From Thermoplasmatota archaeon (lineage in GTDB: Archaea; Thermoplasmatota; Poseidoniia; MGIII; CG-Epi1), in NCBI GenBank assembly GCA_036148495.1, contig JAYYHK010000048.1, forward strand, positions 1-34,234: a stretch of 34,234 nt of DNA, in the 5' to 3' direction. Below, piece after piece: positions 2,981-31,233 of this stretch; position 1 is the first letter of the stretch; each line of letters starts with the position of its first letter. The notes under the pieces are model-generated. The model did not search any database and was not told where the DNA came from. It saw only the letters and a list, made by a program, of their open reading frames with translations. The position numbers and the translations under genes are program-made.

Positions 2981-5980
<3,000 letters not shown>

Positions 5981-13403: not shown

Positions 13404-14096
13404 ATGGAAGAGATAAATTGGCTTAGAGTTTTTGCAGGTCTTTTACTTGTTTTATTCATTCCAGGTTACACATTAATTCAGGCTATGTTTCCTAGGAAAG
13501 GAGAATTAGATGAAGAATTTGACACACTATACAGAGTAACTTTAGGCATGGCTATGTCAATTTGTATAGTAATTTTAGTGGGATTTATTTTGGGAAATCC
13601 AGCCCTTGGAAACGCACCATCCTGGGGTAATTCTGACGATGAAAAAGGATATTTCCAAACTTTTTTTGTAACAACTGTCTTATTGATCTTATCAGCTATA
13701 TTTTTTGTTGCAGGTTGGTACAGAGGGGCGTATCCTTGGACAGCAAATATCCATCCAAATCTAGCGCGAGCTCCTCCTGGTATTCGCATCGAATCAGAAC
13801 TAGCAGTTGCGGGAAAATTCATACCAGCAGAATTAATTGAGCTTCAAGGACTTAAACACGATAGAGACAATGTTAAGCGAAAGCTTGCTGAGGTTGAATC
13901 TCGTAAAAGATCCGGCAGTTCAGTGATGAAAAAATATTATGAAAAAAAAGAAAAAACTCTTTTAGCAGATTTAGCAGATATAGACTCGAGAATGGCAGAT
14001 ATTGACCAACAGCTGAATCGACCAGGTGAAGGAGAAGGTTTGTCTGGAGATGTCGTTCTAGAAAATTCTTTAGAAACCGCTGATGAAGAGGAATAA
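13404..14096 (+). CDS. Archaeal membrane protein with a DUF1616-like N-terminus and a charged coiled-coil C-terminus
   Basis: LLLVLFIPGYTLIQAMFPRKGELD...RVTLGMAMS matches my recollection of the DUF1616 N-terminal pattern. It has three TM helices and then a K/E-rich helical tail. Confidence 0.5.
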   Translation: MEEINWLRVFAGLLLVLFIPGYTLIQAMFPRKGELDEEFDTLYRVTLGMAMSICIVILVGFILGNPALGNAPSWGNSDDEKGYFQTFFVTTVLLILSAIFFVAGWYRGAYPWTANIHPNLARAPPGIRIESELAVAGKFIPAELIELQGLKHDRDNVKRKLAEVESRKRSGSSVMKKYYEKKEKTLLADLADIDSRMADIDQQLNRPGEGEGLSGDVVLENSLETADEEE

Positions 14097-16057: not shown

Positions 16058-17584
16058 ATGTCTAAATCACCAGCTGCAGCTAAACGCGGAATTCCCTCCA
16101 AGGAAAATTTCAAAGAATGGTATCCATTTATTGTTGAAGCTGCCGAGCTAGTTGACAAGAGATATCCAATCAAAGGAATGGATGTGTGGCGACCTTATGG
16201 TTGGAAAACCATGAGACTTATTGACAATTTAACACATGATGAAATGGAGAGGACAGATCATGAGGAAGTGAATTTCCCTCTATTGATTCCTGAAGATTTA
16301 TTAGATAAAGAAAATAAATTAGTTTCATTGCTTAAAAAGGCCAGAGAGGCAGGTGTCGATCCCTCAGAGTTAAGATTAGAGGACGATGTTGAAGGATTTG
16401 CTAAGGAAGTTTATTGGATTAGGCACGCAGGTGAGACCAAATTAGACAAGCCGATGTTTTTGAGACCAACAAGTGAAACGGCAATGTATACGATGTTTCC
16501 ATTGTGGATTCGTTCTCACGCAGATTTACCTCTAAAAACTTATCAAATTGTAAATACTTTCAGATATGAAACTAAGCAAACTAGATCATTCATCAGAGTT
16601 AGAGAAATTCATTTCTTTGAGGCACATACTGCGCACATTGACGAAGATGACGCTACAAGGCAAATTAATGAGGACTTAGAGATTGTAGAAAATTTAATGA
16701 ATGAATTAAATTTTCCAGTAATTATAACTAAAAGACCAGTTTGGGATACATTCCCCGGAGCTTGGTACACTATAGCTATTGATGTTATAATGCCAGACGG
16801 TAGAACATTACAGGTTGCTTCGGTTCACCATTACAGGGACCAATGGGCTAAAGCATTTGATGTGAAATATGAGGATGAATCAGGAGAGCAAAAATATGTT
16901 CACCAAACAACATATGGAATGTCAGAAAGATTGCTCGGTGCAACAGTAGCTACTCACGGCGATGATAAAGGATTGATTATGCCTCCTTCAATTGCACCAA
17001 TTCAAGTAATTATAGTCCCAATATTATCTAAAGAAGGTTCAGAAGAGATAATGGCCGTAGCCAACGAAATGGTTAAGACTTTAAGATCAGAAAAAATCAG
17101 AACTAAATTAGACGACAGAGACATCAGGCCAGGACAGAAATATTATGATTGGGAAATTAAAGGTGTTCCTCTTAGAATAGAATTAGGTCCTAGAGATTTA
17201 AAATCAAATTCATTCATGTGTGCTAGAAGAACAGGAGAAAAATCTAGCTACAGTTTAGATGAATTGGTAACCTCAGTTAGAGAAGAATTGAAATCAGTTG
17301 ATACCCACATGAAAGAGAGTGCTAAGAATCATTTTGATAATCGTATTAAGCAAATGCCATCTTTAGAAATAGTAGATTCACATCTTTCTCTTGATGAAAA
17401 TCTCGAGGAAGGTTTTGTCTATGAAATGGCCTTTGATGGGAATGATGCTGAAGCTGAAATGATAGAAAAGGAAACAGGATTTTCATTTTTAGGAGAATCT
17501 ACAACTCCATACGCTAATGAAAGAAAATGTGTAGTTTCAGGCAAGCCTACTCACAATAGAGTTTTCTTAGCTAAAACCTATTGA
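16058..17584 (+). CDS. proS: Prolyl-tRNA synthetase, archaeal/eukaryotic type
   Basis: Class II motifs (FLRPTSETAMYTMF; FRYETKQTRSFIRVREIHFFEAH; GMSERLLG), an anticodon-binding domain (IQVIIVPI), and a C-terminal extension ending in the conserved terminal Tyr (LAKTY). Confidence 0.93.
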   Translation: MSKSPAAAKRGIPSKENFKEWYPFIVEAAELVDKRYPIKGMDVWRPYGWKTMRLIDNLTHDEMERTDHEEVNFPLLIPEDLLDKENKLVSLLKKAREAGVDPSELRLEDDVEGFAKEVYWIRHAGETKLDKPMFLRPTSETAMYTMFPLWIRSHADLPLKTYQIVNTFRYETKQTRSFIRVREIHFFEAHTAHIDEDDATRQINEDLEIVENLMNELNFPVIITKRPVWDTFPGAWYTIAIDVIMPDGRTLQVASVHHYRDQWAKAFDVKYEDESGEQKYVHQTTYGMSERLLGATVATHGDDKGLIMPPSIAPIQVIIVPILSKEGSEEIMAVANEMVKTLRSEKIRTKLDDRDIRPGQKYYDWEIKGVPLRIELGPRDLKSNSFMCARRTGEKSSYSLDELVTSVREELKSVDTHMKESAKNHFDNRIKQMPSLEIVDSHLSLDENLEEGFVYEMAFDGNDAEAEMIEKETGFSFLGESTTPYANERKCVVSGKPTHNRVFLAKTY

Positions 17585-17613
17585 TCCTTCACAGTAGAGA
17601 TATCGAAGTTAGA

Positions 17614-17622
17614 CTTTATATA
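17614..17622 (+). promoter_or_regulatory. Candidate TATA box for the pilin-like gene
   Basis: ctttatata lies about 75 nt upstream of the ATG at 17695, implying a leader of about 45-50 nt. Confidence 0.25.
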
Positions 17623-17694
17623 CAGTCTGTGACCTGTTTATGTCCGACAGTAGAATCACTTGTGGTTCAAAACTGTCAGAAAGAGGACGCAACC

Positions 17695-18261
17695 ATGGAA
17701 CACAGAATAGAAAAAAACGATGAGGGAGTTTCCCCAGTTATTGCCGTTATTTTAATGGTGGCAATTACAGTTGTTTTGGCAGCTGTGCTGTACGTATGGG
17801 CAGCCAGTTTCTTAGAACAAGGAGAATCAGCCCCTATAGCCACTTTCTTTGTATCACAAGATAGTGCAAATATATATCACGTAGAAGTGATTAAAGTTAG
17901 CAAACAAGAAGACTTACTAGGATTTAGTTACTTCTTGAAAGACGGATCTGGATCGACATTTGTCGGTGGCAACGGCTTCGGTGAAGTTGCTATGCAATTC
18001 CAGGGCGGCGAAGAAATGGGTATAGATATGACCTATAGTGGAGATGATGAAGCATTAGAGAGCAGAGCAGCCAACGTCACAAACGACGACGGTAGTCAGT
18101 TCCCAGTTCACTTCTCTGACAACGACCGCGATGGCAAATTGTCATCTGGTGACCAATTCTTAGTGTACGGACCAGACCCTGGCCCAGCACAAGATGGTTG
18201 GAAACTAGATATCCAATTTGATGCAACCGGAGACATTATTGGCTCCGCTAAATTACTATAA
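17695..18261 (+). CDS. Archaeal type IV pilin-like protein (class III signal peptide, DUF1628-like)
   Basis: MEHRIEKNDEG|VSPVIAVILMVAITVVLAAVLYVWA is a typical archaeal prepilin N-terminus. DNDRDGKLSSGDQFLV is typical of this family. The start is placed at the internal ATG at 17695, because the upstream 38 codons of the tracked ORF (17581-17694) overlap the proS end and look non-coding. Confidence 0.7.
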   Translation: MEHRIEKNDEGVSPVIAVILMVAITVVLAAVLYVWAASFLEQGESAPIATFFVSQDSANIYHVEVIKVSKQEDLLGFSYFLKDGSGSTFVGGNGFGEVAMQFQGGEEMGIDMTYSGDDEALESRAANVTNDDGSQFPVHFSDNDRDGKLSSGDQFLVYGPDPGPAQDGWKLDIQFDATGDIIGSAKLL

Positions 18262-19475: not shown

Positions 19476-22400
19476 CTATGTTCTTTTGGATCTATAGCTA
19501 ACGTATGCTAATCCACCAACAAGTCCAACAACTACAAGAGCAATCATTCTGAAAGAATTGTCATCGTCATCAGATACTGAGCTGACAGAAATTGTGATAG
19601 CCTTTTCGTTATTTGTCGAGTCTACCTCGTTCAAGGTTACAGAGGGGTCAATTGCAACTCTCAATGGGTGTGAGCCCTTTGTAGCAGTCCATGTAGCCGT
19701 TACGGTAACTTCTTCATCATCAGTTCCCTCAAAAAGGATAGTAGTTACGTTGAAAGGCTCGTCACCATCATAAAATACAATAGGTACATTGTGAATTCCT
19801 GTGTTGTTTACTAGGTTAGAAATTGTAGCAGTTAATGTTACTTCAGTTCCTACTGTAGGAACTTCAGGGTTCCACAATAACTCGGATACAGTAAAGTCAG
19901 GACTTTGTGCTTCTATTGGCGTCACACCTATCTCAAATGTATGCGTTACGTCATCGACTTGGTTATCGCTTCCGTCGGTCCAGGAAACAGTAACACTGAA
20001 TGTTTCTTTTTCATTCACTGTTACAGTTTGATCTGGAGTTATCTTCAATTCAGAAGTTACATTTTCTCCAAAATTAACACCCCATTTGTTTGGAACAAAT
20101 TCAGCAGTCCAATTACTTGGGATGCTATCTACACTTAGTTCATAGATAGTGTTTAAGTGACCGTTTGAAGAACCGTTGAAATTGAAAGTTACAGTTTGAC
20201 CCAATGCAACATTAGCTTCGGTTCTATCGACATTAACTTCAATTCCTCTCATCAGTTTCTTTTCGACAGTCTGATTTTGAAGAACACCGTCTTTCTCATC
20301 AGTAATATTTGCATTACTATTTAGATTGTAAACATAATCCTGTTCACCAGACAAGTCTTTGTGTTCACTTACTAGGCTGTAAATTCCGTCAGGAACCGTA
20401 ACATCTAGAATACCATTGTTAACCTCAATTTCAAAGCTAAAATTATCACCGTCCATTTCTATTTCATCGAAATCAATAGTTTCAGAATCTGCTGAAGAAA
20501 GATATGTTTCTCTAAAATTAATACCACGATTTAATGACGCATTTAGAGTAAATGCCCCTTCTAGTTCTAATTCAGCTATGTCGACATAACTAGTATCTTC
20601 ATTTGAATAAATCCAATATTGGTATGCACCAGTGTAAAGGTAGATTTCGTATTCTCCATTTTCGTCGGCCGTGGCATTAAATTGAACATTAGTACCTGCC
20701 ATGTTCCATATTTCTATTTCTGAATTTGGTAATAAGTCATCGGTATTAGCCACTCCATTGAAATCACGATCGTAAAATACTGTACCTGATAATTTTACTC
20801 TCCAATCAGATTCTCTTTTGAATGTTTGTTGTTCTTTTCCAGCTTTAACATTTAGGTTTTGAGCATTCAATTTAAAGCGTTCATTATCTCCATCTTCAAA
20901 GTGAGTCATTTCTATTTCATATGTTCTTGGAATCATATCAGAAAGAGTGATAGTTCCGTTCTCATCAGTAGTGAACGTTTCATCGTAATCAGCGAAAGAG
21001 TTTGTAAATCTTACATTAGCATTAGAAACAGGTAATTTACTTCCAGTTGCATTATTGTAAGTAACTTCCAAAGTGACGTTAACGGCGGTAGGATCTAACG
21101 TAATAGTATATTTGTCAGTGTCACCATCTACTACAAAATTATCTTCGAATAGCTCATACCCTTCAACATCTACTACAACAGAATATAGTCCATTAGGTAA
21201 ATCAATTTTGCCATAATCTATCGTGGAACCAAATAGCCCCTCGTCGGCAATTGTTTCGGTAATAAATACTATGTTATCTTCAGATTCAAATCGTACTTCT
21301 ATGGCGTTACCTTGTATTAAATCACCATCAGATGAAGAGATTACTTCACCTCTAAAGTTACCCTCATTTTTTAAGGTTAAATTATATTCTCTAGCGCTAT
21401 TTATAGTAACGGCACCGAGGAAGCTGTAGTGTTTGCTGCTAACTCCGTCTTGGAAGCTTACGTAGTAGTTTCCTTGTGACAAGCTTCCGGAGTATCCTTC
21501 AAACTTAGTGATATCGAATGTAGTAGAATTATCAGAATCACTTACAGGAGTAAAGGTAACCATTCCGTCTTCAGTAATATCATTCAAAGTTGCAAATCCA
21601 CTAATATCATATTTCTTTTCAGCACTTACATTTCCTAGGTCAAGGTTATCTTGTCCAATTTCAATATCAATTTGACCTAATGCAAAATATCTTGTTCCAT
21701 TTTCATGGTATGAAAACGAGTAAAGATAATTATCAGGAGGTAAAATTACGTCTGTCAGCATTCCGTCACCATCAGTACTAAAGTTTAGGAAGTATGAAGG
21801 ATCAGAAATTGGAGAGAATGAAATATCGGCATTAGCAATACCGCTGTTTTCAAACACAAATTTGCCTTGAATGTTTGTAGGAATACGTGCCATTTCTACA
21901 ATTAATTCTTTCTCAGCATTTAGTTCGAAATCTGTTATCTCTACTCGACTATTATTTGTTTCGGTAGACATTTCATATATTTTTTCAAAGGTATATCCAT
22001 ATTTTTGGGCACTTATTTCATATGAATTTATTGGTAATGTAATCATGATGCTGGGGTCTGAAGCCCATACGTTTAGAGCTCCAGTTGTTTCTCCGTCAAA
22101 ATTCACTAAGCCTTCTAGAGGAATTTCGTTACCTAAATGCTCTTCATACATTACGATTACTACATCCTGACCATAGTTGGAAGAAAGATTTGAATTTTCA
22201 TCTTCATCAGTCAAAATTACGGGTTGCAGTGCTACAAGATTTTGCCCATCTCCGCCTATGTGTGCATAGGCATTGTAAATACCTGCAGGCAAGATTAATT
22301 CATACTCACCATCAAAAGTACTAGTAGTGGATACGGTCCCACCTGCAGTAGAATCAAAAGTAATTTTAATATCTTCAAATCCTTTTTCATCATCGTCTAG

Positions 22401-25400
22401 AGTTTTACTTCCATTAACATCTTCGAATAATTTACCTTCAACAACATAACCGAGTCCCATTGCTGCAACAATAGGTAGTGAAATGGTATTACTATCGACG
22501 CGTTCTAAATATGCTAAGGTATCATTTCCTTTTTGGTGTAGCGTGAACAAGTCATAAGTTCCCTCTGGCAATACCGTGGCGAAGTAACCATTCTCATTGG
22601 TGAATACATTATAGCTATCAACTAAATTTACATTTCTTATTGATATTTGTTCATCAGCTATACCTTGACCAGCATGAGACAAAGTACCTTCAACCCGGAA
22701 TCCGTTTCTTAATGTAGCCTCATAGCCAAGAGAAGTACCTTTTTCAAGAGTAATATCGACACTATTATTTTGCCAATTAGCAGTATTATCAGCCAGTAAT
22801 CCTTCATTTTCTAGCCTTAAAGTGTAGTTACCAGGCAATAATTTTTCAAAACAGAAAGAAACTGGGCGATCATCGCCCTCATCTGGACAATCTGAGCCTT
22901 GTAGATAATTCTGATTCAAGAAAGTACTTTCTACAAGGCTACCGTTTGTTTCATCATACAATGATACTGTAATTTCAGTATTTCCTATTTCATCAGCAGA
23001 TAAAAATTGACCCCATATTGTACTTGGCTCTAGAGATTCTGTAATTTCAATGTCTTGGCCTGCACGAGTTGCAGAAGCGCCTAGATAGGAGCCTAGAGTA
23101 ATTTCGTGTTCTTCAACTACAGTTGTGATTGTATATTCACCTGGAGCTAGGCCTATGAATTCATACTTTCCGTTCGCATTTGTGTTGACAATTGTTTCTA
23201 CTCCTGAACGGATGTTAGTAGCTTTAATTGGTGTGACTGGCAGAGCTTCGTCTACACTTCCACTAAAAGTACCATCATCATCCATGTCCCAGAATAATCT
23301 TCCAGTGATGTTGGTAGGCTCAATTTCAATATCTATGTCAAATGTTGAGTTAACACCAGGGTATCTCATTGCAGCTTCCTCAGAAATATTTACTTTCAAT
23401 AAATCGTCTGCCGAGGTTCCTGTCAAAATATTATTGCTAACTTTTCTAATTTTTTCATCGTCTGAGGTTAATTCACCTATAGAAACAAATACACTTACAT
23501 TTCCGGCAACAGACAATACTGAATACTTCCCATTTTCATCAGTAGTAGTGCTGCCATGAGGAATTCCATATTCGTCTAAAATAGTTACATTTGCGTTGGC
23601 TACAGGATCACCATTTGGCGTTGAAACTGTACCTTGAATTGTTGCTCCATCGTAATATTTCAACATTCTTAATTGAGTACCTGATGATTTGATTAGCTTG
23701 AAGTGAGTCATGTTCCAGCCAGGTGCTGGCATCTTCCCTTCTTGTGCTATTGAACCTGTGATTCCAGGTATTCCATCCGAAATAGGTCGGCCGATATCTG
23801 TGGCAGACCATCCTATGAAAGCTCTAAAGAACATAGAGTTCAAAAATTGTTCTTTGTAGACAAGCACATCAGATTCGATAGTTAAAGAAGGGTTTGTCTT
23901 TAACAATTCGTTAATTTCATCGGCAGGTAAAGTTTGCCCGTTTGATAAAGTATATTGAACTTCTACATAGTCGTTGATATTGTAATCAGCCAAACTGATA
24001 GGTGCGTATAGAATTCCGGTTTGCCCTGGTTTTGGTCCATATGCCATCATTCTAGTATCGGCTGCAAAATATCGAATAGATTTACCAGTAATTTGCTCTA
24101 CTTCCCAAAGTAAATCTGAAATTGTAGTAATATCCATAGTCATTAGAATTACTTTACCAGCTCTAATTGCAGCATTTCTTTTGTTAACATCTTTTTCGCT
24201 TCCGTCAGAATTCTTAGGAATATAATCTTCTGGATTTGCTACGATATGTTCTAGTGCAGAAACATTCTCCTCATTTAGATATCCTTCTAAAATTTTACTT
24301 CTAACTTCAGAATTCAGTCTATCAGAGTCTCTACTTACTTCAGTCTCTAGAATCCTGTAAAGAAGGAGCGACATAGCTTCATGTTCAGACTGAGATGCGA
24401 TGAAATTACCTGCAATTTGGTAACCATATTGGAAATTATCAGCAACAGTAGGGTGCTCACCAATCTCAATTGCCCAGAATCCGTAATCCCACCAAGCCAT
24501 GAATCCAGGCCTATCTTCTGGAGCTTTTTCAGTATCTTGTTCAGCCAACCACTCAAGACCATCAATCCAATAGTCTGAAGGGAAAGAAGGCCCTGTGTTA
24601 CCCATGTACCATAACTGGTTCGAGCTTAAGTTAGGTGTATACATACCACCGACACCGTCAGGGTACAGAGTTTCATTGTTTCTTTGGCCGTAATCAAATT
24701 CTTCAGGTCTGAAGAAGTCATAACTTAGGAAATTGTAAATATCAGCGTCATGTTCTTTTTTATCTTCGTAGGGAACTCCAGCATCATAGCCATAGAATGT
24801 GTTTGGTAGGAATATGAATAAGCCAACGAAAAGAGCAACTAATGGCCTTTTTATTTCGAAGGATTTTCTTAACCCACTAATTCTATCACGGAAACGATAT
24901 TGGTCGATATCTTGAGCATCCATGTGCCCAATTACCATAATTAATACAATCAAAATAGTTGCAGTTAAAAGTCCAACTAGTACACTTATGGTAAAGAAGA
25001 ACCAAAATCCGATAGCAGCAGAAAGTAATGAAAGCCAGTAGAACAAGTTTCCACGTTTCCCCCAGTAGCTAGTCCATGTTTGTAATATAGCCGGGAAATC
25101 AGCCCATTGAATTATTAGCCAAGTCATCCAACCGCTTATTAGTGAAACAACAGGTGTTGCATTGAAAATAAAACGAACAGCTGACTGAGCCATAAATAAA
25201 GACACGAAAGCCCAGATCATTACAAACAGATAGTCTTTCTTCCACACACTTTGGTTGAATAGTTGATATGCCATCCAAATGACTCCGAAGATTGCCAACC
25301 AAATTGACACCGGCCCAAATGCAAATACAAAATCTGCAAATTCAGGAGGTTGAGCCTCAGCAATAGTATTGAAAAGTTTGGTTCTTACGAAATATCCTTG

Positions 25401-26558
25401 TCCACTGAATAGTAAGAATCCGAGTTCAGTGAAAACATATGTTAGTAGCAGGTAGAAGGCAAGGGCAACTAGTGCTGAACTTCCGATTACCAATAGCCAA
25501 GGTAAATCTCTAGTTGTCACCATCAATAAAGACATGATAACATAACCAAGCAAAATGTAAGCTGGAGCTTCCCACCAAGTATCGATGAAGCCCAATGTGT
25601 GGTAGTAAGGATAGGATAAAATTACAGGTAGACCTAGAGTGATTAATCCTATCATTCCGGTTGTTAAACTATCAACTCGTCTGAACGCATTGATTAACAT
25701 CTGAAAACCTAAGTAAATAGCAATGATTGCCATAATGTATGGGAATCCTTTCCAACTCATTGCAATCATAGCTATAGTCATACCTGCCAACCCGGCATAA
25801 CCTAGAGCTAGTTTTTCATTTTTAATCAAATCACTAAAACCTTTCTTAATACTATCAAAATTAGTCCAATCTGAAACCCACTTTCTATCATTAGATACAG
25901 TTAAAGCTCTCATAAAGAAAAAGAAAGTAGTAGTACCAAACAAAATTATGTATGAATCGTGATCAGCTAGAGCCAAACTTGAATGACTTACATGACTTGC
26001 GTTCACTCCAATTAAGAAGGCTCCAAGAAGTCCCGCTTCTTTACCAAATTGAGCTCTACCAATAGCATAAACAGGGAATACAATTAAAGCACCGTAAATT
26101 GCAGGTAATATTTGCATAGCCCACCAAACAGAATCTTCGGTTGAATCGAAAAGAGGTGAGAATATTAATCCAATTATTGCAATAGACCAATCGAATAACG
26201 GTGGACGGTTATTATTTGCACCATAAGGATAGTTTAGCATTGGATCTTTCTGCAGATGTTCACCGTTATCAACAACATGATCAACAACGTGTTTGTGGTA
26301 GTAAGGGTCACTACCTCCAGTTAATTGGTAGCCGTCTTCAGTCGCAGGTTCAGCAGTCCAAGCGGTTCTAATGTAAAGTGAAAATACAAAAATTAGAACT
26401 AGTAATCCTACAGTTCTCCAGTCAACTTTACTGGTTTTTTTAACAAGTCCTACTTTCTCAATACCTGCAGAGGGAGCTCTGCTGATAGAAGGAGTTGGGC
26501 GATTCTTGAAGCGACTCTTTACCTTAGAGTCACGTCGACGACGTGTTTGTCTTGCCAT
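19476..26558 (-). CDS. aglB: Giant (2360 aa) AglB/STT3-type oligosaccharyltransferase fused to about 1400 aa of carboxypeptidase-regulatory-like beta-sandwich repeats, a CARDB-like domain and a C-terminal TM anchor
   Basis: Catalytic WWDYG at aa 689-693 (nt 24480-24494). The EL5 motif TIAE is at nt 25356-25367. The first-loop acidic motif is SDPYYH (aa 83-88). The second motif is ADHD (DHD = nt 25956-25964). There are about 13 hydrophobic helices in aa 45-590. From aa ~970 there are repeated units of the type G.V....G.P...A.V.....G......TDENGKY. The CARDB-like segment is at about 19584-19916. The terminal helix is MIALVVVGLVGGLAYV, followed by RSKRT. Confidence 0.88.
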   Translation of the reverse strand: MARQTRRRRDSKVKSRFKNRPTPSISRAPSAGIEKVGLVKKTSKVDWRTVGLLVLIFVFSLYIRTAWTAEPATEDGYQLTGGSDPYYHKHVVDHVVDNGEHLQKDPMLNYPYGANNNRPPLFDWSIAIIGLIFSPLFDSTEDSVWWAMQILPAIYGALIVFPVYAIGRAQFGKEAGLLGAFLIGVNASHVSHSSLALADHDSYIILFGTTTFFFFMRALTVSNDRKWVSDWTNFDSIKKGFSDLIKNEKLALGYAGLAGMTIAMIAMSWKGFPYIMAIIAIYLGFQMLINAFRRVDSLTTGMIGLITLGLPVILSYPYYHTLGFIDTWWEAPAYILLGYVIMSLLMVTTRDLPWLLVIGSSALVALAFYLLLTYVFTELGFLLFSGQGYFVRTKLFNTIAEAQPPEFADFVFAFGPVSIWLAIFGVIWMAYQLFNQSVWKKDYLFVMIWAFVSLFMAQSAVRFIFNATPVVSLISGWMTWLIIQWADFPAILQTWTSYWGKRGNLFYWLSLLSAAIGFWFFFTISVLVGLLTATILIVLIMVIGHMDAQDIDQYRFRDRISGLRKSFEIKRPLVALFVGLFIFLPNTFYGYDAGVPYEDKKEHDADIYNFLSYDFFRPEEFDYGQRNNETLYPDGVGGMYTPNLSSNQLWYMGNTGPSFPSDYWIDGLEWLAEQDTEKAPEDRPGFMAWWDYGFWAIEIGEHPTVADNFQYGYQIAGNFIASQSEHEAMSLLLYRILETEVSRDSDRLNSEVRSKILEGYLNEENVSALEHIVANPEDYIPKNSDGSEKDVNKRNAAIRAGKVILMTMDITTISDLLWEVEQITGKSIRYFAADTRMMAYGPKPGQTGILYAPISLADYNINDYVEVQYTLSNGQTLPADEINELLKTNPSLTIESDVLVYKEQFLNSMFFRAFIGWSATDIGRPISDGIPGITGSIAQEGKMPAPGWNMTHFKLIKSSGTQLRMLKYYDGATIQGTVSTPNGDPVANANVTILDEYGIPHGSTTTDENGKYSVLSVAGNVSVFVSIGELTSDDEKIRKVSNNILTGTSADDLLKVNISEEAAMRYPGVNSTFDIDIEIEPTNITGRLFWDMDDDGTFSGSVDEALPVTPIKATNIRSGVETIVNTNANGKYEFIGLAPGEYTITTVVEEHEITLGSYLGASATRAGQDIEITESLEPSTIWGQFLSADEIGNTEITVSLYDETNGSLVESTFLNQNYLQGSDCPDEGDDRPVSFCFEKLLPGNYTLRLENEGLLADNTANWQNNSVDITLEKGTSLGYEATLRNGFRVEGTLSHAGQGIADEQISIRNVNLVDSYNVFTNENGYFATVLPEGTYDLFTLHQKGNDTLAYLERVDSNTISLPIVAAMGLGYVVEGKLFEDVNGSKTLDDDEKGFEDIKITFDSTAGGTVSTTSTFDGEYELILPAGIYNAYAHIGGDGQNLVALQPVILTDEDENSNLSSNYGQDVVIVMYEEHLGNEIPLEGLVNFDGETTGALNVWASDPSIMITLPINSYEISAQKYGYTFEKIYEMSTETNNSRVEITDFELNAEKELIVEMARIPTNIQGKFVFENSGIANADISFSPISDPSYFLNFSTDGDGMLTDVILPPDNYLYSFSYHENGTRYFALGQIDIEIGQDNLDLGNVSAEKKYDISGFATLNDITEDGMVTFTPVSDSDNSTTFDITKFEGYSGSLSQGNYYVSFQDGVSSKHYSFLGAVTINSAREYNLTLKNEGNFRGEVISSSDGDLIQGNAIEVRFESEDNIVFITETIADEGLFGSTIDYGKIDLPNGLYSVVVDVEGYELFEDNFVVDGDTDKYTITLDPTAVNVTLEVTYNNATGSKLPVSNANVRFTNSFADYDETFTTDENGTITLSDMIPRTYEIEMTHFEDGDNERFKLNAQNLNVKAGKEQQTFKRESDWRVKLSGTVFYDRDFNGVANTDDLLPNSEIEIWNMAGTNVQFNATADENGEYEIYLYTGAYQYWIYSNEDTSYVDIAELELEGAFTLNASLNRGINFRETYLSSADSETIDFDEIEMDGDNFSFEIEVNNGILDVTVPDGIYSLVSEHKDLSGEQDYVYNLNSNANITDEKDGVLQNQTVEKKLMRGIEVNVDRTEANVALGQTVTFNFNGSSNGHLNTIYELSVDSIPSNWTAEFVPNKWGVNFGENVTSELKITPDQTVTVNEKETFSVTVSWTDGSDNQVDDVTHTFEIGVTPIEAQSPDFTVSELLWNPEVPTVGTEVTLTATISNLVNNTGIHNVPIVFYDGDEPFNVTTILFEGTDDEEVTVTATWTATKGSHPLRVAIDPSVTLNEVDSTNNEKAITISVSSVSDDDDNSFRMIALVVVGLVGGLAYVSYRSKRT

Positions 26559-26620
26559 TGATGTTGTGTCCTTCCTGCCTCTTTAGAAATCAGAGACGGA
26601 TTGGGCGCCACTCGGATGGT

Positions 26621-26628
26621 TATATAAG
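26621..26628 (-). promoter_or_regulatory. Candidate TATA box for aglB
   Basis: The - strand reads cttatata about 65 nt upstream of the ATG (26558), implying a leader of about 40 nt. A purine-rich aggaagg lies about 10 nt before the ATG. Confidence 0.3.
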
Positions 26629-26658: not shown

Positions 26659-27948
26659 TTAAGATGAAGGTTGTATTTCACCAATACAATTTCCAAATCC
26701 AATCTTGTAACCTTTTCCTTTACAGAAACCTTTCAAAGTTATAACATCGCCATCTTCCAAGAAAGTTCTTTTTTCACCATTAGGAAGTGTAATTGGTTCT
26801 TTCCCACCCCATGCAATTTCTAGCATAGAACCTCGACTGTCTTTGTCAGGTCCGGAGATAGTTCCACTTGCTAATAGGTCCCCTGTTCGTAAATTACAAC
26901 CCGTGATTGTATGATGCGCAATCTGTTGAGCCATATTCCAATACAAATAGTTGTAATTTGTTCTAGATATTACGCAGGATTCATTCATTTCTTTAGTTTG
27001 CAAGTGTACTTCTAGTTCAATATCAAAATTGTGATCATTTTTATTTTTTAAGTAGTCAAAGGGTTCAGGTTCTTGCTTTGGGCTCTTACATCTGAACGGT
27101 TCCAGAGCTTCTAGAGTAATTATCCAAGGAGATATAGACGTTACAAAGTTTTTTGCTAGAAAAGGTCCTAGTGGGATATATTCCCATGTTTGAATATCTC
27201 TTGCTGACCAATCGTTAACTAAAGATAATCCAAAAACATGATTTTCAGCTTCATCTACGGGAATAGGTTCTGAAAGTAAATTGCCTGAACCAATCAAAAC
27301 CCCCATCTCAAGTTCAAAATCTAGTCTTTTACAATCACCAAAAACAGGCTCATCAGAATTTGGTGGCTTGGTCTGACCTTTTGGCCTAACAATGTCAGTT
27401 CCACTTAGCACAACGGACGAGGCACGACCATGATATCCTACAGGAATATGGAGCCAATTCGGCATCAAAGCAGCGTCAGGCCCTCTGAACATTGTTCCAA
27501 CATTTGTGGCGTGTTCTCTAGATGAATAAAAATCAGTATAATCTCCAACATCAACTGGCAATTCCATGTTGACGTTTTCCTTTGGAATTACGGCGATTTT
27601 TCTCAATTCTTCGTTGTCACGTAGCATAGGATTATCTTCACTTAAGACTTCACTAATTTTCATTCGGGTCTCTTTCCATGCTTTTCTTCCCATTGACATA
27701 AATGCGTTCAATGTAGGTTCATGGAAAATTTCAGCATCTTCTATTTCAGTACCTTCAAAGATTCCAGCGTCATCCAAGTGGGCTAAATCAATTACGAAAT
27801 CACCAATTGCAGTTACAACATGCAAGTCTCCGCCTTCTTTTGGGCTACAGACTCCAAAAGGTATATTCTGAATAGGGAAATCAGAATTTTCGTCTACATT
27901 TATCCAAGATTTTAGATTTGAATCGTGTGTTTTGTCCATTACATCCAT
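26659..27948 (-). CDS. fahA: Fumarylacetoacetase (long, eukaryote-like form with an N-terminal domain)
   Basis: The N-terminal FPIQNIPFGV motif, then DFYSS..H..N.G, GYHGRASS, LDFELEMG, FGL.L.NDWSARDIQ.WEY.PLGPF..K.F. The protein is 429 aa. An alternative ATG at 27939 would give a TAATG overlap with the upstream gene. Confidence 0.9.
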   Translation of the reverse strand: MDVMDKTHDSNLKSWINVDENSDFPIQNIPFGVCSPKEGGDLHVVTAIGDFVIDLAHLDDAGIFEGTEIEDAEIFHEPTLNAFMSMGRKAWKETRMKISEVLSEDNPMLRDNEELRKIAVIPKENVNMELPVDVGDYTDFYSSREHATNVGTMFRGPDAALMPNWLHIPVGYHGRASSVVLSGTDIVRPKGQTKPPNSDEPVFGDCKRLDFELEMGVLIGSGNLLSEPIPVDEAENHVFGLSLVNDWSARDIQTWEYIPLGPFLAKNFVTSISPWIITLEALEPFRCKSPKQEPEPFDYLKNKNDHNFDIELEVHLQTKEMNESCVISRTNYNYLYWNMAQQIAHHTITGCNLRTGDLLASGTISGPDKDSRGSMLEIAWGGKEPITLPNGEKRTFLEDGDVITLKGFCKGKGYKIGFGNCIGEIQPSS

Positions 27949-28946
27949 CCTAATTGTTTTAAGTCATCCATGGGCTCTTGAAAAGAGCAACTGCCAAATG
28001 AAATTCCATTATTTTGTCTGCTTTTTTCAATTGTTTCATTCCCAATTTCAAATCTGGAATCACGATCATCTCCCACCTTCCATACCATTTTATCTTCTAA
28101 AAATTCAAAGTCGTCTTCGTTTTGGCAATCAATCATGTGTGCCAATAAAATAAACATTCGAAATTTTTCTTGTTCATTTCCAGGTTTAGGAAATGTCGTA
28201 GCGAATGCACTAGCACTAAACATATTTATGAATCCATGCATTTCAGTATCGTATTCGTTTGAATGATGTCTCAATGGATGATGTAATCCTGCAGTAAATT
28301 TGAGAGGAACATTGTAGATGCTACAATTTTGTATCATCGCAGCGACCTGTTCAACAGATGGAAAAGCCTCTTTCACAATTCCTCCACACCTGATCTTTAT
28401 TCCCGTATTACCTAGAGTTGAAATCATTTTAATTGTTGGTGTAATTTTTTCATCCCATTCCCCATCATCTTCATTTGTAGCATAATTTATCCCAACATAC
28501 GGCAGCTCAGGAAATTCATGGTAATGTTCAAGATTGTTTGAATTTAGAATTTCAATAACACTTGTCATTGTATTTTTTGAAGGTGATGTGGAAGGTAGTT
28601 TAGTTTCTATGACTTCAATTGAAATTTTTCCCTTATGTTTTTCTCTGTAATCATTAATCATATCAATTTCTTTTTTGGTTTGGTGAAGAAATTCTCTATC
28701 TGAATTAGTTTGTCCACCCAAAACAGACAATTTTAATGTTCCAATCCCGTCAAACTTTGGAATGAATTCTTCTAAATCTTTTAGTTGGGATACAGGCATG
28801 ATAAATCTTCCTAGAATCCATTTTTTATTATCTTTGAAATGAGAAATATACTCAGCTACAGCCTCATTCAAAGGTAACTTGGCAGGAGGAAATAGACCAG
28901 CATAGTCTATCAACCCATTCATGAGTGTTTGAAGACTATTTTTCAT
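27939..28946 (-). CDS. Uncharacterised 335-aa protein embedded in the homogentisate operon; function unknown
   Basis: The ORF is intact and compositionally like its neighbours. It starts 5 nt after the HGD stop, and its end overlaps the FAH start by 10 nt. Local motifs are DYAGLFPPAKLP, IRCGG and KFTAGLHHPLRHH. I cannot assign a family. Confidence 0.6.
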   Translation of the reverse strand: MKNSLQTLMNGLIDYAGLFPPAKLPLNEAVAEYISHFKDNKKWILGRFIMPVSQLKDLEEFIPKFDGIGTLKLSVLGGQTNSDREFLHQTKKEIDMINDYREKHKGKISIEVIETKLPSTSPSKNTMTSVIEILNSNNLEHYHEFPELPYVGINYATNEDDGEWDEKITPTIKMISTLGNTGIKIRCGGIVKEAFPSVEQVAAMIQNCSIYNVPLKFTAGLHHPLRHHSNEYDTEMHGFINMFSASAFATTFPKPGNEQEKFRMFILLAHMIDCQNEDDFEFLEDKMVWKVGDDRDSRFEIGNETIEKSRQNNGISFGSCSFQEPMDDLKQLGWM

Positions 28947-28951
28947 CTAAT

Positions 28952-30136
28952 TTATTCGCCTAGAGCGTCTTTGTAACCTTCACCATCGAGCCAGGATTTT
29001 GAATAATCAGGATCTTCAACTTTTAGAGCATATTTAGCAACTTTTAGTGGATAATGAGTGTCAACCATCACAGCTAACTCATCGGTCCATTTTGCTCCGA
29101 TAGATGCTTCATATTTTCCAGGATGAGGGCCGTGTGTCAAACCATCAGGATGTAAGGTCATTGACCCAAATTCCACACCTTTTCTAGACATAAATTCCTT
29201 TGAATCGTAGTAAATAACTTCATCAGACATAATATTTGCATGATTATATGGTGCAGGAATTGCATTTTTGTCAAAATCAAACGGTCTAGGGCAGAATGAG
29301 CAAACTACAAATCTGTCACTAGCAAATGTTTGATGAACGGGTGGAGGTTCATGGATTCTACCAACAATAGGCTCAAAGTCATGTATGCTGAACGCAAATG
29401 GATAGTAATATCCATCCCATCCAACAACATCACAAGGATGGTGTCCTAGAGTTACTTCCGTGAATCTGTTTCTTTGTTTCACAATAATCTTGAATTCACC
29501 TTTTTCATCGTGAGGAACTAATTCATCAGGTCCTCTGAAATCACGTTCAGAATATGGGCTCCTCTCGATGATTTGGCCGTATTCATTTCTATATCTTCGA
29601 GGAGTTCGAACTTCACCAGGTGATTCTACAATCAAAAGCGAGTGCTCTTCGTCATTCATTACATATTTGTGCAAAATACCTCTTGGAATCACTAGGTAGT
29701 CTCCAGAGGAATATTTCATATTTCCAAAAGCAGTCTCTAGAGTTCCACTTCCTTGACTAACGTAAATTATTTCGTCACCCTGGGCATTTCGATAATAATA
29801 ATCATCATTTTTGTCAGGATAGCACATCATCATTACAACATCGTTGTTGAACAAGAAAGGTTTTCTGTCCATAATTGCGCTTCCCCCCTTATCAGCTCTA
29901 TTTGTGTAAAAATGCCTCATTCTGAGACTTTTATCGTCGTCTTCTTCAAGTGTAAAACTTCCGATTTCTTTAGTCGATAAAACTTCTGTGGGTGGATATA
30001 TGTGATACAAAAGTGAAGAAGGACCAACAAATCCTTTGTTTCCTTTTAATTCTTCATGGTATATATTTCCATTATCATCTCTAAATACTGTGTGTCTTTT
30101 CTTAGCTACTTTTCCTAGTTTATGATATCTGTGCAT
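28952..30136 (-). CDS. hmgA: Homogentisate 1,2-dioxygenase (short, about 390-aa form)
   Basis: The N-terminus Y..LG...KRHTVFRD..G..YHEEL.G..GF.G.SSLLYH..PPT and the cupin-type core with His/Glu-rich segments (IHEPPPVHQTF, LHPDGLTHGPHPG) fit HGD. Its ATG shares one base with the HPPD stop (TAATG). Confidence 0.8.
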   Translation of the reverse strand: MHRYHKLGKVAKKRHTVFRDDNGNIYHEELKGNKGFVGPSSLLYHIYPPTEVLSTKEIGSFTLEEDDDKSLRMRHFYTNRADKGGSAIMDRKPFLFNNDVVMMMCYPDKNDDYYYRNAQGDEIIYVSQGSGTLETAFGNMKYSSGDYLVIPRGILHKYVMNDEEHSLLIVESPGEVRTPRRYRNEYGQIIERSPYSERDFRGPDELVPHDEKGEFKIIVKQRNRFTEVTLGHHPCDVVGWDGYYYPFAFSIHDFEPIVGRIHEPPPVHQTFASDRFVVCSFCPRPFDFDKNAIPAPYNHANIMSDEVIYYDSKEFMSRKGVEFGSMTLHPDGLTHGPHPGKYEASIGAKWTDELAVMVDTHYPLKVAKYALKVEDPDYSKSWLDGEGYKDALGE

Positions 30137-31233
30137 TACAGGTTACCTCTCTCTGCTTGGTGTCTTTCAATTGCTTCAAATAATGCCTTAAAGTTTCCAA
30201 CTCCAAAGCCTCTCGATCCTTTTCTTTGTATAACTTCGTAGAATACAGTCGGTCTATCCTCTACAGGCTTAGTGAATAACTGCAGTAAGTATCCCTCATC
30301 ATCTCGATCAACTAGTATTTTCAATTTGCGGAGGACTTCGATGTCTTCATCGATTGCTCCGACTCTATTAGTCAAATCTTCATAGTAAGTATCTGGAACT
30401 TCTAAAAATTCAACTCCGTTTTCTTTCAGTTTTCCAATGGTTTTGATTATGTCGCTTGTTAGTAAAGCGATATGCTGGACACCAGCCCCATCATAGAATT
30501 CTAAGTATTCATCAATTTGTGATTTTCTTTTGCCTTCAGCAGGTTCATTGATTGGGAATTTGATTCTTCCATTGTCACTTTCCATCACTTTAGACATCAG
30601 TGCAGAATATTCAGTGGAAATATCATCATCACTAAAGGCTTGAATTTGTGAGAATCCCATCGTGTCTGCGTAGAAATTAACCCAATCTTCCATTTTGCCT
30701 AATTCCACATTACCGACGATATGATCAATAAATTTTAATCCAACGTTTTCACCTTCGATTTTGCTTTCTACGAATCCAGGTAAAAAGGGTCCATCGTAAT
30801 CATCGTGGGAAATGAAAGAGTGAACAGTTTCTCCGTATGTATAAATTGAAGCTTTGGTTATACTTCCGTTGTCATCACTAATAGTTTCAGGTTCTTTAGC
30901 ACTTTTCGCTCCACGAGCTACACATGCTTCGTAACATGCCTTTGCATCATCAACGTGAAACGCAATATCCTTTACACCATCACCGTGCCTTCTAATGTGC
31001 TCAGATAATTCATTATTTCCGTTGAGTGGGGTGGAAAAGACCATTCGTATTCGGCCCTGCTCTAGAACGTAACTAGCTTTCTCTCTGTCGCCTGTCTCTA
31101 AACCAGAGTATGCAATTTGATTATATCCGAATGCTTTTCGATAGTAGTAGGCAGCTTGCTTTGCATTACCCACATAAAACTCAACGTGATGTACAGCTTT
31201 AAGTGGAACTGGGTCTTTACTCATTATTTTCAC
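30136..31233 (-). CDS. hppD: 4-hydroxyphenylpyruvate dioxygenase
   Basis: [24 protein letters not shown], the C-terminal [31 protein letters not shown]. The protein is about 365 aa. The start is either the GTG at 31233 or the ATG at 31224. Confidence 0.92.

What the first reader, a model, noticed from the sequence alone, without database searches (positions are those of the whole stretch)
19476..26558. Oligosaccharyltransferase AglB fused to about 1400 aa of extracellular repeats, more than twice the usual AglB size
The N-terminal ~960 aa carry every catalytic hallmark of AglB/STT3: the first-loop D, the DHD motif, TIAE in EL5 and WWDYG.

Characterised archaeal AglBs are roughly 500-1050 aa. 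Here the periplasmic domain continues without a stop into more than 10 carboxypeptidase-regulatory-like beta-sandwich modules, a CARDB-like module, and finally a second membrane anchor (MIALVVVGLVGGLAYV + RSKRT). The polypeptide would therefore be tethered to the membrane at both ends.

An enzyme of the N-glycosylation machinery physically fused to a surface-layer-like array is not something I know to be described.

Possible roles are a scaffold that couples glycosylation to envelope assembly, a spacer that positions the catalytic site, or an adhesin.
Basis: partly seen in the sequence, partly recalled or inferred. Interest (0 to 1): 0.72.

Follow-up and report, generated by a model that had tools for sequence, protein, structure and literature searches.

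The report
Giant archaeal glycosylation enzyme with surface stalk
This marine archaeon's protein-glycosylating enzyme (AglB) really is fused to a 1,400-residue string of about 14 beta-sandwich domains ending in a second membrane anchor, and this giant form turns out to be the usual one across a whole archaeal phylum, although I found no paper that describes it.

Summary
Window 19476-26558 (-) is one uninterrupted 2360-aa ORF. It contains an AglB/STT3 oligosaccharyltransferase, about 12 prealbumin-like (CarboxypepD_reg) domains, two Ig/CARDB-like domains, and a C-terminal TM helix with a basic tail.

It is not an assembly artefact. Full-length relatives of 2070-3200 aa, 94% down to about 28% identical, occur in many separate assemblies. 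They come from Marine Group III/II (Poseidoniia), Methanomassiliicoccales, DHVE2 and other Thermoplasmatota, including Aciduliprofundum sp. MAR08-339 (on a 1.44-Mb contig).

The catalytic residues are invariant in an alignment of the window protein with 17 diverse relatives. dN/dS is about 0.05 for the enzyme part and 0.08-0.09 for the extension.

The extension is acidic and enriched in N-glycosylation sequons, strongly so in relatives. At least one relative ends in a PGF-CTERM sorting signal.

The extension's closest solved sequence relative is eukaryotic NOMO (E 5e-25). Its closest solved fold is B. anthracis TIE, which is also the closest fold reported for NOMO.

New finding: the last ~225 residues match a small CARDB-plus-anchor protein. 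Other Thermoplasmatota encode that protein separately, directly downstream of aglB. In this lineage it appears to be fused on.

Best reading: an active AglB tethered to a self-glycosylated envelope stalk or arch. It is common in databases, but I found no paper describing it.

The parts
19476..26558 (-). Complete giant aglB ORF, 2360 aa plus stop
   Evidence: Full-length relatives at 94-28% identity.
26620..26627 (-). TATA-like box TTATATAA about 62 nt upstream of the ATG, followed by a purine-rich AGGAAGG before the start codon. Read as a putative own promoter and ribosome-binding site.
   Evidence: Read directly from the sequence. This is inference only.
26427..26558 (-). N-terminal basic cytoplasmic tail, residues 1-44, starting MARQTRRRRDSK. 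The motif is conserved in most relatives.
24774..26426 (-). Multi-pass transmembrane GT-C domain of AglB, residues 45-595. It holds D84 (26307-26309), DHD 199-201 (25956-25964) and TIAE 398-401 (25356-25367).
   Evidence: Pfam STT3; hydropathy peaks; alignment to 3WAJ; invariant columns.
23664..24773 (-). Extracellular globular domain of AglB, residues 596-965, with WWDYG 689-693 (24480-24494).
   Evidence: Pfam AglB_core-like; PDB hits 3vgp and 3vu0; invariant WWDYG.
20259..23663 (-). Array of about 12 prealbumin-like (CarboxypepD_reg) beta-sandwich domains, residues 966-2100. It joins the AglB domain through a conserved junction with no linker.
19557..20258 (-). Two terminal Ig-like/CARDB domains, residues 2101-2334. 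They are homologous to the separate downstream partner protein of other Thermoplasmatota.
   Evidence: Pfam CARDB 2219-2319; partner HMM aligned to 2137-2359; pairwise E 7e-9.
19479..19556 (-). C-terminal transmembrane helix (2335-2353) and basic tail YRSKRT.
   Evidence: Hydropathy; modelled helix; conserved in nearly all full-length relatives.

Best explanation
This is the genuine, functional oligosaccharyltransferase of a Marine Group III (Poseidoniia, Thermoplasmatota) archaeon, in the giant form typical of that phylum.

The N-terminal multi-pass domain and the WWDYG domain transfer lipid-linked glycans onto Asn-X-Ser/Thr sites outside the membrane. This is shown by homology and by invariant catalytic residues. 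Activity itself is inferred.

The polypeptide then runs, with no linker, into about 12 prealbumin-like domains and two Ig/CARDB domains. It returns to the membrane through a C-terminal helix with a basic cytoplasmic tail. The extension therefore forms an acidic, membrane-tethered stalk or arch on the cell surface. This topology is inferred from hydropathy and the positive-inside rule.

The extension is probably itself N-glycosylated, given its sequon enrichment. It would then act as a structural element of the envelope: a glycocalyx or spacer component that keeps the glycosylation machinery coupled to surface-coat assembly. In layout and domain type it resembles eukaryotic NOMO. This function is inferred.

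The last ~225 residues correspond to a small CARDB-plus-anchor protein. Other Thermoplasmatota encode it as a separate gene directly downstream of aglB, usually with overlapping or abutting stop and start codons. In this lineage the two genes appear to have fused. The collinear homology is shown. The direction of the event is inferred.
For: Integrity:
- One ORF.
- Full-length homologues in ENA, JGI, NCBI, Logan and TARA assemblies.
- Nearly all untruncated ORFs in 80 genome loci are 2070-2500 aa with a C-terminal TM plus basic tail.

Catalysis:
- D84, D199, D201, E401 and WWDYG are invariant across an alignment of the window protein and 17 diverse relatives.
- These regions align to AfAglB-L.
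- Pfam STT3 and AglB_core-like score above their cut-offs.

Selection:
- Against two ~84%-identical MGIII loci, dN/dS is 0.046-0.058 for the enzyme part and 0.056-0.093 for the extension.

Extension:
- Confident all-beta models.
- Best fold match for both halves is BaTIE 6fwv, followed by SdrD and pilin stalks.
- The family profile hits NOMO2 9c7v_B at E 5.3e-25, ahead of the AglB structure itself.
- BaTIE is also the closest fold reported for NOMO1, which is a rod-shaped ER spacer (PMC8327139).

Substrate-like character:
- 30 sequons in the extension against 19.6 +/- 4 expected from shuffles.
- z > 2 in 12 of 18 relatives, reaching z 10-13 with 51-61 sequons.
- D+E 16.8% against K+R 5%.
- P0077 passes the PGF_CTERM model.

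Junction:
- Conserved, with no linker and no conserved internal Met.

Partner gene:
- A +1 CARDB-plus-TM gene is present in 40 loci. Its start falls within -4 to +8 nt of the aglB stop in 29 of them.
- Its HMM aligns end-to-end with the C-terminus of Poseidoniia-type AglBs and of the window protein: residues 2137-2359, 24.7 bits, E 7e-10 in a single-sequence search.
Against: - There is no experimental evidence for activity, for a full-length product, for glycosylation of the extension or for any envelope role.
- Sequon enrichment in the window protein itself is modest (z about 2.6).
- The DK/MI motif of the Ser/Thr pocket could not be assigned.
- The match to NCBIfam TIGR04154 is 228 bits, below its 450-bit cut-off.
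- aglB is not next to other glycosylation genes in this window.
- The NOMO match may only reflect a shared, widespread domain superfamily. The generic CarboxypepD_reg model scores far better than the NOMO-specific Pfam models.
- dS is close to saturation, so the dN/dS values are rough.
- The partner-HMM score on the window protein is low (24.7 bits) and carries a high composition bias (13.7).
- Whether these genomes also hold a second, normal-size AglB could not be tested.
Confidence: 0.6

Rival explanations
1. The extension is mainly an adhesin or binding stalk, for particles, polysaccharides or other cells. It simply uses AglB as a membrane anchor and has no mechanistic link to glycosylation or envelope architecture.
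For: The best fold matches are stalks of Gram-positive adhesins and pili: BaTIE, SdrD, RrgB, SpaA and BcpA. SdrD_B and SpaA Pfam hits occur in 17 and 14 of 18 members.
Against: No recognisable ligand-binding tip domain was found; every domain is a stalk-type beta-sandwich. Both ends are membrane-anchored, which is unusual for an adhesin. The architecture, domain number and length are conserved across very different habitats (ocean, sediment, gut, vents, soda lakes), whereas adhesins usually vary fast. The junction to AglB is conserved and has no linker.
Confidence: 0.17
2. It is a polyprotein. The product is cleaved after translation into a normal-size AglB and a separate anchored surface (glyco)protein, with the fusion only ensuring co-expression and co-localisation.
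For: In other Thermoplasmatota a related module (the +1 CARDB-plus-TM protein) does exist as a separate polypeptide. At least one relative carries PGF-CTERM, which implies C-terminal processing by an archaeosortase.
Against: The junction at residues 925-1000 is one of the best-conserved stretches. It has no low-complexity linker, no conserved internal Met and no obvious cleavage motif. The first prealbumin-like domain is the most conserved unit (E 1e-24), which suggests it packs against the enzyme.
Confidence: 0.12
3. The AglB part is catalytically dead and serves only as a membrane anchor for a surface protein. A second, normal AglB elsewhere in the genome does the glycosylation.
For: The match to TIGR04154 is below its cut-off. 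The DK/MI motif was not assigned. The rest of the genome could not be searched.
Against: All metal-binding and catalytic residues and WWDYG are invariant down to about 25% identity. dN/dS for the enzyme part is about 0.05. The closest relatives found with the catalytic domain alone are mostly giant forms, not a separate short paralogue group from the same taxa.
Confidence: 0.04
4. It is an assembly artefact, or a lost stop codon joining aglB to a downstream surface-protein gene.
For: None found. The exact window protein is not on record elsewhere, but a 94%-identical 2360-aa protein is.
Against: There are many separate assemblies with the same reading frame and the same length class, from 94% to 28% identity. 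Both halves are under purifying selection.
Confidence: 0.01

Closest known systems
Archaeal AglB-L oligosaccharyltransferases, e.g. Archaeoglobus fulgidus AglB-L (PDB 3WAJ/3WAK) and Pyrococcus AglB-L
   Same: A multi-pass GT-C domain with the first-loop Asp, the D-x-D/H motif, TIxE in EL5 and WWDYG in an extracellular core domain. The TM domain aligns over most of its length. Known AglB-L enzymes already carry one or two peripheral beta domains, P1 and P2, after the core (PMC3703281).
   Different: About 2.5 times longer. It has about 14 extra beta-sandwich domains and a second, C-terminal membrane anchor. The PDB chain of AfAglB-L is 875 aa. The DK/MI motif was not identified here. The protein falls below the TIGR04154 cut-off.
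Eukaryotic NOMO (nodal modulator, BOS complex subunit of the ER multipass translocon)
   Same: A chain of about 12 prealbumin-like domains followed by one TM helix and a short cytosolic tail, on the non-cytoplasmic side of the membrane that carries the OST. The family profile hits NOMO2 (9c7v_B) at E 5.3e-25, with three significant stretches of roughly two domains each. NOMO-specific Pfam models hit 10, 4 and 2 of 18 members. The closest solved fold for both is BaTIE. NOMO is a rod-like spacer whose length sets the ER lumen width (PMC8327139).
   Different: NOMO is a stand-alone type I protein with a signal peptide, and it partners with nicalin and TMEM147. Here the array is fused to AglB and ends in two CARDB-like domains. 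The generic CarboxypepD_reg model scores much higher than the NOMO models, so specific orthology is not shown. The taxon is Thermoplasmatota, not Asgard.
Stalks of Gram-positive surface proteins and pili (B. anthracis TIE, SdrD B repeats, RrgB/SpaA/BcpA)
   Same: Tandem prealbumin/CnaB-type beta-sandwiches forming an extended stalk. These are the top Foldseek hits, at E 1e-11 to 1e-8.
   Different: Those proteins are attached to peptidoglycan by sortase, and many carry a ligand-binding tip. Here there is no LPXTG motif and no tip domain, and both ends are in the membrane. Sequence identity is only 10-18%.
Archaeal S-layer and surface glycoproteins with a PGF-CTERM or TM anchor (e.g. Haloferax volcanii S-layer glycoprotein; from my own knowledge)
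   Same: Acidic, sequon-rich, beta-rich and C-terminally anchored. At least one giant-AglB relative ends in a bona fide PGF-CTERM signal, and relatives carry up to 61 sequons.
   Different: There is no evidence of lattice formation. The window protein has a plain TM anchor, not PGF-CTERM. No known S-layer protein is fused to its own glycosylating enzyme.

Membership tests
AglB/STT3/PglB oligosaccharyltransferase (GT-C, GT66) | N-terminal multi-pass (about 13 TM) domain homologous to STT3 | tested here: met
   Pfam STT3 at residues 72-507, 41.6 bits against a cut-off of 24.5. The family profile aligns positions 37-508 to residues 5-475 of 3WAJ, E 2.4e-23. Hydropathy peaks lie between 45 and 591.
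AglB/STT3/PglB oligosaccharyltransferase (GT-C, GT66) | Acidic metal-binding and catalytic residues in EL1 and the second D-x-D/H motif | tested here: met
   D84 aligns with AfAglB-L D47, and D199-H-D201 aligns with D161-H-H163. All are invariant in the 18-sequence alignment.
AglB/STT3/PglB oligosaccharyltransferase (GT-C, GT66) | TIxE/SVSE motif in external loop 5 | tested here: met
   T398-I-A-E401. T398 and E401 are invariant; I399 and A400 are at least 90% conserved.
AglB/STT3/PglB oligosaccharyltransferase (GT-C, GT66) | WWDYG motif in the extracellular core domain | tested here: met
   W689-W-D-Y-G693 is invariant. Pfam AglB_core-like scores 30.9 bits against a cut-off of 27. PDB hits 3vgp and 3vu0.
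AglB/STT3/PglB oligosaccharyltransferase (GT-C, GT66) | DK or MI motif forming the Ser/Thr-binding pocket | tested here: inconclusive
   The conserved stretch after WWDYG contains E725, L731 and R735, but no clear D-x-x-K or M-x-x-I. Variant DK motifs are known to be unrecognisable without a structure (PMC3703281).
AglB/STT3/PglB oligosaccharyltransferase (GT-C, GT66) | Transfer of a lipid-linked glycan to Asn in N-x-S/T | not testable with these tools
   This needs an enzyme assay or genetics.
NCBIfam TIGR04154 (archaeosortase A system-associated STT3 subfamily) | Score at or above the curated cut-off of 450 bits | tested here: not met
   228.4 bits for the window protein and 217-254 bits for four relatives. 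This is a related but distinct subfamily.
NOMO / BOS complex subunit | Chain of about 12 prealbumin-like domains homologous to those of NOMO | tested here: inconclusive
   Profile against PDB: NOMO2 at E 5.3e-25. NOMO_5th hits 10 of 18 members, best E 1e-11, but only 0.027 in the window protein. The generic CarboxypepD_reg model is far stronger, so homology is shown at superfamily level and orthology is not.
NOMO / BOS complex subunit | Stand-alone type I membrane protein: signal peptide, luminal rod, one C-terminal TM, short tail | tested here: not met
   The rod, TM and tail are present, but the array is fused to AglB and has no signal peptide of its own.
NOMO / BOS complex subunit | Association with nicalin and TMEM147 at the translocon | not tested
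   I did not search for archaeal homologues of these partners.
PGF-CTERM / archaeosortase A substrates | C-terminal PGF motif, then a TM helix and a basic tail, matching TIGR04126 | tested here: not met
   The window C-terminus is ...SFRMIALVVVGLVGGLAYVSYRSKRT, with no PGF and no TIGR04126 hit. Relative P0077 does pass (27.6 bits against 24.5); P0084 is below threshold.
Archaeal S-layer glycoprotein | Forms the two-dimensional surface lattice and is N-glycosylated | not testable with these tools
   Only indirect signs are available: an acidic, sequon-enriched, anchored beta-rich ectodomain.

The most novel reading that the evidence does not exclude
The prealbumin-domain rod plus anchor fused to AglB is the archaeal counterpart, and possibly a relative of the ancestor, of eukaryotic NOMO. 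It would act as a molecular ruler that sets the thickness of the glycocalyx or pseudo-periplasm around the site where proteins emerge and are glycosylated. The proximity of OST and NOMO/BOS at the eukaryotic ER translocon would then echo an ancient covalent OST-rod-partner module. That module is seen here in three forms: AglB plus rod, a separate CARDB-anchor partner, and their fusion.
Probability: 0.1. Interest if true: 0.85.

Novelty: new variant of a known kind. Interest (0 to 1): 0.6.

Why it matters
AglB is the one enzyme common to all archaeal N-glycosylation. It has been studied only in forms of roughly 500-1050 aa (from my own knowledge; the AfAglB-L PDB chain is 875 aa). This analysis shows that a major, ecologically dominant phylum uses a form 2-3 times larger. 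That phylum includes the ocean's Marine Group II/III, the gut and sediment Methanomassiliicoccales, and the vent-dwelling DHVE2.

In this form the enzyme is covalently tied to a long, sequon-rich, double-anchored surface stalk. In most lineages it is also paired with a directly adjacent small anchored partner gene.

The envelopes of these mostly uncultured archaea are essentially unknown. This protein is a concrete, conserved candidate for a major envelope component, and for a direct physical link between glycosylation and surface-coat assembly.

The sequence-level match to NOMO also offers a testable lead on where that poorly understood ER protein came from.

A homologue in Aciduliprofundum sp. 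MAR08-339 (a cultured strain, from my own knowledge) would make experiments possible.

Tried and rejected
- Mis-assembly or lost stop: rejected.
- Exact-sequence look-up of the window protein in other assemblies: nothing on record. The nearest protein is 94% identical.
- Direct phmmer of the extension against PDB sequences: no hit. Only the family profile reached NOMO.
- Glycosylation gene cluster around aglB in the window: none found. The neighbours are a homogentisate/tyrosine catabolism cluster, an esterase, a pilin-like protein and ProRS.
- tRNA or other RNA features near the gene: only a lone 23S rRNA far away.
- Literature: nine full-text searches found no description of a giant AglB or an AglB-CarboxypepD_reg fusion. 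The two main AglB surveys, Kaminski 2013 and Nikolayev 2020, are not in the held library, so a passing mention there cannot be excluded.
- DK/MI motif: I tried to assign it from conserved columns and could not.
- Thioredoxin two genes downstream in 11 loci: I considered whether it is an OST3/OST6-like subunit. It is a plain 116-aa thioredoxin, and its OST3_OST6 hit is weak (25.9 bits, below the 27-bit cut-off), so I did not pursue it.
- Other giant ORFs near aglB in loci L013 and L016: they share only a CARDB-like stretch with the window protein.
Full report
**1. The observation**

The window holds one uninterrupted ORF on the minus strand, 19476-26558, of 2360 aa with an ATG start.

Pfam places the following domains:
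- STT3 at residues 72-507
- AglB_core-like at 651-731
- CarboxypepD_reg units starting at 973
- SdrD_B at 1088-1149
- CARDB at 2219-2319

Hydropathy shows a cluster of TM peaks between residues 45 and 591. There is exactly one more, at 2335-2353, followed by YRSKRT.

A lone archaeal 23S rRNA gene elsewhere in the window, together with the named relatives, identifies the source as a Marine Group III archaeon (Poseidoniia, Thermoplasmatota). The nearest named protein is from 'Marine Group III euryarchaeote CG-Epi6', at 83% identity and 2367 aa.

**2. It is real and under selection**

A search of 5.8 billion proteins returned full-length relatives from 94% down to about 28% identity. They are 2100-2770 aa long and come from ENA, JGI, NCBI, Logan and TARA assemblies.

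A scan of one genome per species found 478 relatives. In the best 80 loci, almost every ORF not cut by a contig end is 2070-2500 aa. Each has 1500-1860 aa after WWDYG and ends in a TM helix plus basic tail. The few shorter ones are in contigs with masked bases or from nanopore-style assemblies.

The taxa represented are Poseidoniia (MGII and MGIII), Methanomassiliicoccales, Methanomethylophilaceae, DHVE2, halophilic 'plasma' lineages and many unclassified Thermoplasmata. MGII Poseidonia carries a 3185-aa version. Aciduliprofundum sp. MAR08-339 has a 2081-aa version on a 1.44-Mb contig.

Using only the catalytic 960 residues as the query against 1.84 billion cluster representatives, 89 of the best 150 are 2000 aa or longer. 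The giant form is therefore the usual one in this clade.

In an alignment of the window protein with 17 diverse relatives, D84, D199, D201, T398, E401 and WWDYG are invariant. D84 and DHD align with D47 and D161/H163 of the A. fulgidus AglB-L structure.

Against two ~84%-identical MGIII loci, dN/dS is about 0.05 for the enzyme part and 0.06-0.09 for the extension. dS is near saturation, so these values are rough.

The junction at residues 925-1000 is strongly conserved (GWNMTHFKL...LKYYDGA.I.GTV). It has no linker and no conserved internal Met.

**3. Anatomy of the extension**

An iterative HMM finds prealbumin-like units starting at about 970, 1080, 1285, 1370, 1561, 1650, 1732, 1819, 1921 and 2017. 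There is a weak unit at 1180 and an undetected stretch at 1450-1560.

AlphaFold2 models of residues 955-1660 and 1640-2360 are confident (pLDDT 86.9 and 87.9). They are all-beta, with 54 and 53 strands, and end in a helix at 2335-2359. This fits about 12 prealbumin-like domains plus two Ig/CARDB domains.

Foldseek against the PDB gives the same top hit for both halves: the Bacillus anthracis TIE protein (E 1e-11 and 4e-12). Next come SdrD, pilin shafts and alpha-2-macroglobulins. No enzymatic or ligand-binding tip domain appears.

The extension is acidic (D+E 16.8%, K+R 5%). It has 30 N-x-S/T sequons against 19.6 +/- 4 expected from shuffles. The enzyme part has 7 sequons in 965 residues.

Across 18 relatives the enrichment is z > 2 in 12. 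It reaches z 10-13 (51-61 sequons) in three lineages, two of which have C-termini that read as PGF-CTERM. P0077 passes the curated PGF_CTERM model. In the family as a whole, then, the extension looks like a heavily N-glycosylated, anchored surface protein.

**4. Link to NOMO**

A profile of the family searched against all PDB sequences gives NOMO2, a subunit of the eukaryotic BOS complex, as its best hit: 9c7v_B, E 5.3e-25, 90 bits. Three significant stretches each cover roughly two domains. This is ahead of the AglB structure 3WAJ (E 2.4e-23). Apart from AglB/STT3 chains, the only other hits at E <= 0.001 were two short uncharacterised proteins matching the CARDB-like region.

NOMO is a chain of 12 prealbumin-like domains followed by one TM helix and a short tail (PMC11186639). 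It is rod-shaped, and its length sets the ER lumen width. Its closest known fold was reported to be BaTIE (PMC8327139).

The layout and domain type are therefore shared. However, the generic CarboxypepD_reg model scores far higher than the NOMO-specific Pfam models. Only superfamily-level homology is shown.

**5. A partner gene, fused here**

In 40 of the non-Poseidoniia loci, the gene immediately downstream on the same strand encodes a ~250-aa protein. It has a signal peptide, a CARDB domain and a C-terminal TM plus basic tail. Its start lies within -4 to +8 nt of the aglB stop in 29 of the 40 loci, often as an ATGA-type overlap. That arrangement is typical of translational coupling.

Poseidoniia-type loci lack this gene. 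Their AglB is about 170-200 aa longer and ends in CARDB.

An HMM of the 40 partners aligns collinearly, right to the last residues, with the C-termini of Poseidoniia-type AglBs. For L004, HMM positions 52-264 match residues 2143-2367 at E 2e-11. For the window protein, HMM positions 57-265 match residues 2137-2359 at 24.7 bits and E 7e-10 in a single-sequence search. The pairwise BLAST E-value is 7e-9.

The simplest reading is a fusion of aglB with its partner, with loss of one TM helix and one signal peptide. The opposite direction (fission) is not excluded.

**6. Mechanism proposed**

Shown:
- An intact, conserved, selected gene.
- A complete catalytic site.
- A beta-sandwich array.
- A terminal helix.

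Inferred:
- Both termini are cytoplasmic and the array is outside the cell, so the protein forms a loop or arch.
- At about 4-5 nm per domain (BaTIE: four domains span 19 nm), the contour is roughly 60 nm. A hairpin could stand up to about 30 nm high.
- The array is N-glycosylated, plausibly by its own enzyme domain or by neighbouring copies.
- It functions as an envelope spacer or glycocalyx element that couples glycosylation to surface-coat assembly.

The rivals are an adhesin, a cleaved polyprotein, a dead enzyme and an artefact. They are weighed in the rival-explanations section.

**7. Novelty**

The kind of enzyme (AglB) is known. The architecture is abundant in databases under automatic names: 'STT3 domain-containing protein', 'carboxypeptidase regulatory-like domain-containing protein' and even 'peptide transporter'.

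Nine literature searches found no description of it. Two key AglB surveys could not be read.

I rate it a new variant of a known kind. It is of moderate to high interest because it is phylum-wide, concerns the unknown envelopes of abundant marine archaea, and opens a testable link to NOMO.

Noticed in passing
window 2998-5965 (-): A complete archaeal 23S rRNA gene stands alone. No 16S, 5S or tRNA gene was found elsewhere in the 34-kb window. This is the unlinked rRNA arrangement typical of Thermoplasmatota (that typicality is from my own knowledge).
   Followed up: partly
window 1-2472 (+): An 823-aa ORF that begins at the first base of the window. It carries bacterial thrombospondin type-3 (calcium-binding) repeats and is probably another large surface protein.
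   Followed up: no
window 26659-31233 (-): A homogentisate/tyrosine catabolism cluster (HPPD-like dioxygenase, homogentisate dioxygenase-like protein, an unknown 335-aa protein, fumarylacetoacetase) lies directly upstream of aglB on the same strand. The three genes nearest aglB are syntenic in 13, 11 and 9 of the loci analysed, the window included.
   Followed up: partly
window 31298-33340 (-) and 33389-34081 (+): An M50 site-2-type protease carrying PDZ and PKD domains sits next to a protein with an archaeal EMC6-like domain. EMC6 is a relative of a eukaryotic ER membrane-complex subunit.
   Followed up: no
window 26427-26558 (-), residues 1-44: The cytoplasmic N-terminus begins MARQTRRRRDSK. 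This very basic motif is kept almost unchanged in relatives down to about 30% identity. The C-terminal tail (YRSRR-like) is also conserved among the closer, Poseidoniia-type relatives. Function unknown.
   Followed up: partly
window about 23712-23720 (-), residues 947-949: A sequon at N947-M-T, in the motif GWNMTHF just before the junction to the first prealbumin-like domain, is conserved in most relatives. It may be a conserved glycosylation site on the enzyme itself.
   Followed up: no
L017 16363-17100 (+) and the equivalent position in 39 other loci: A small signal-peptide, CARDB and TM-anchor protein is encoded directly after aglB, within -4 to +8 nt of its stop in 29 of 40 loci. Two genes downstream, 11 loci hold a 116-aa thioredoxin with a weak, sub-cut-off OST3/OST6 hit.
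   Followed up: partly
P0118, P0258-P0294 (MGII Poseidonia sp.): The MGII versions are about 3150-3230 aa. In these the STT3 match begins only at residue ~345-410, so they carry an additional N-terminal region of unknown nature as well as a longer extension.
   Followed up: no
P0229-P0300: A second length class of related AglBs, about 1000-1300 aa, ends in beta-sandwich sequence with no C-terminal TM helix. Some are fragments, but a coherent group at roughly 1110-1290 aa looks like an intermediate form with a few prealbumin-like domains and no second anchor.
   Followed up: no
window 17581-18261 (+) and 13404-14096 (+): An archaeal type IV pilin-like protein (Pilin_N) and a DUF1616 membrane protein lie on the other side of aglB. 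Their relevance is unknown.
   Followed up: no
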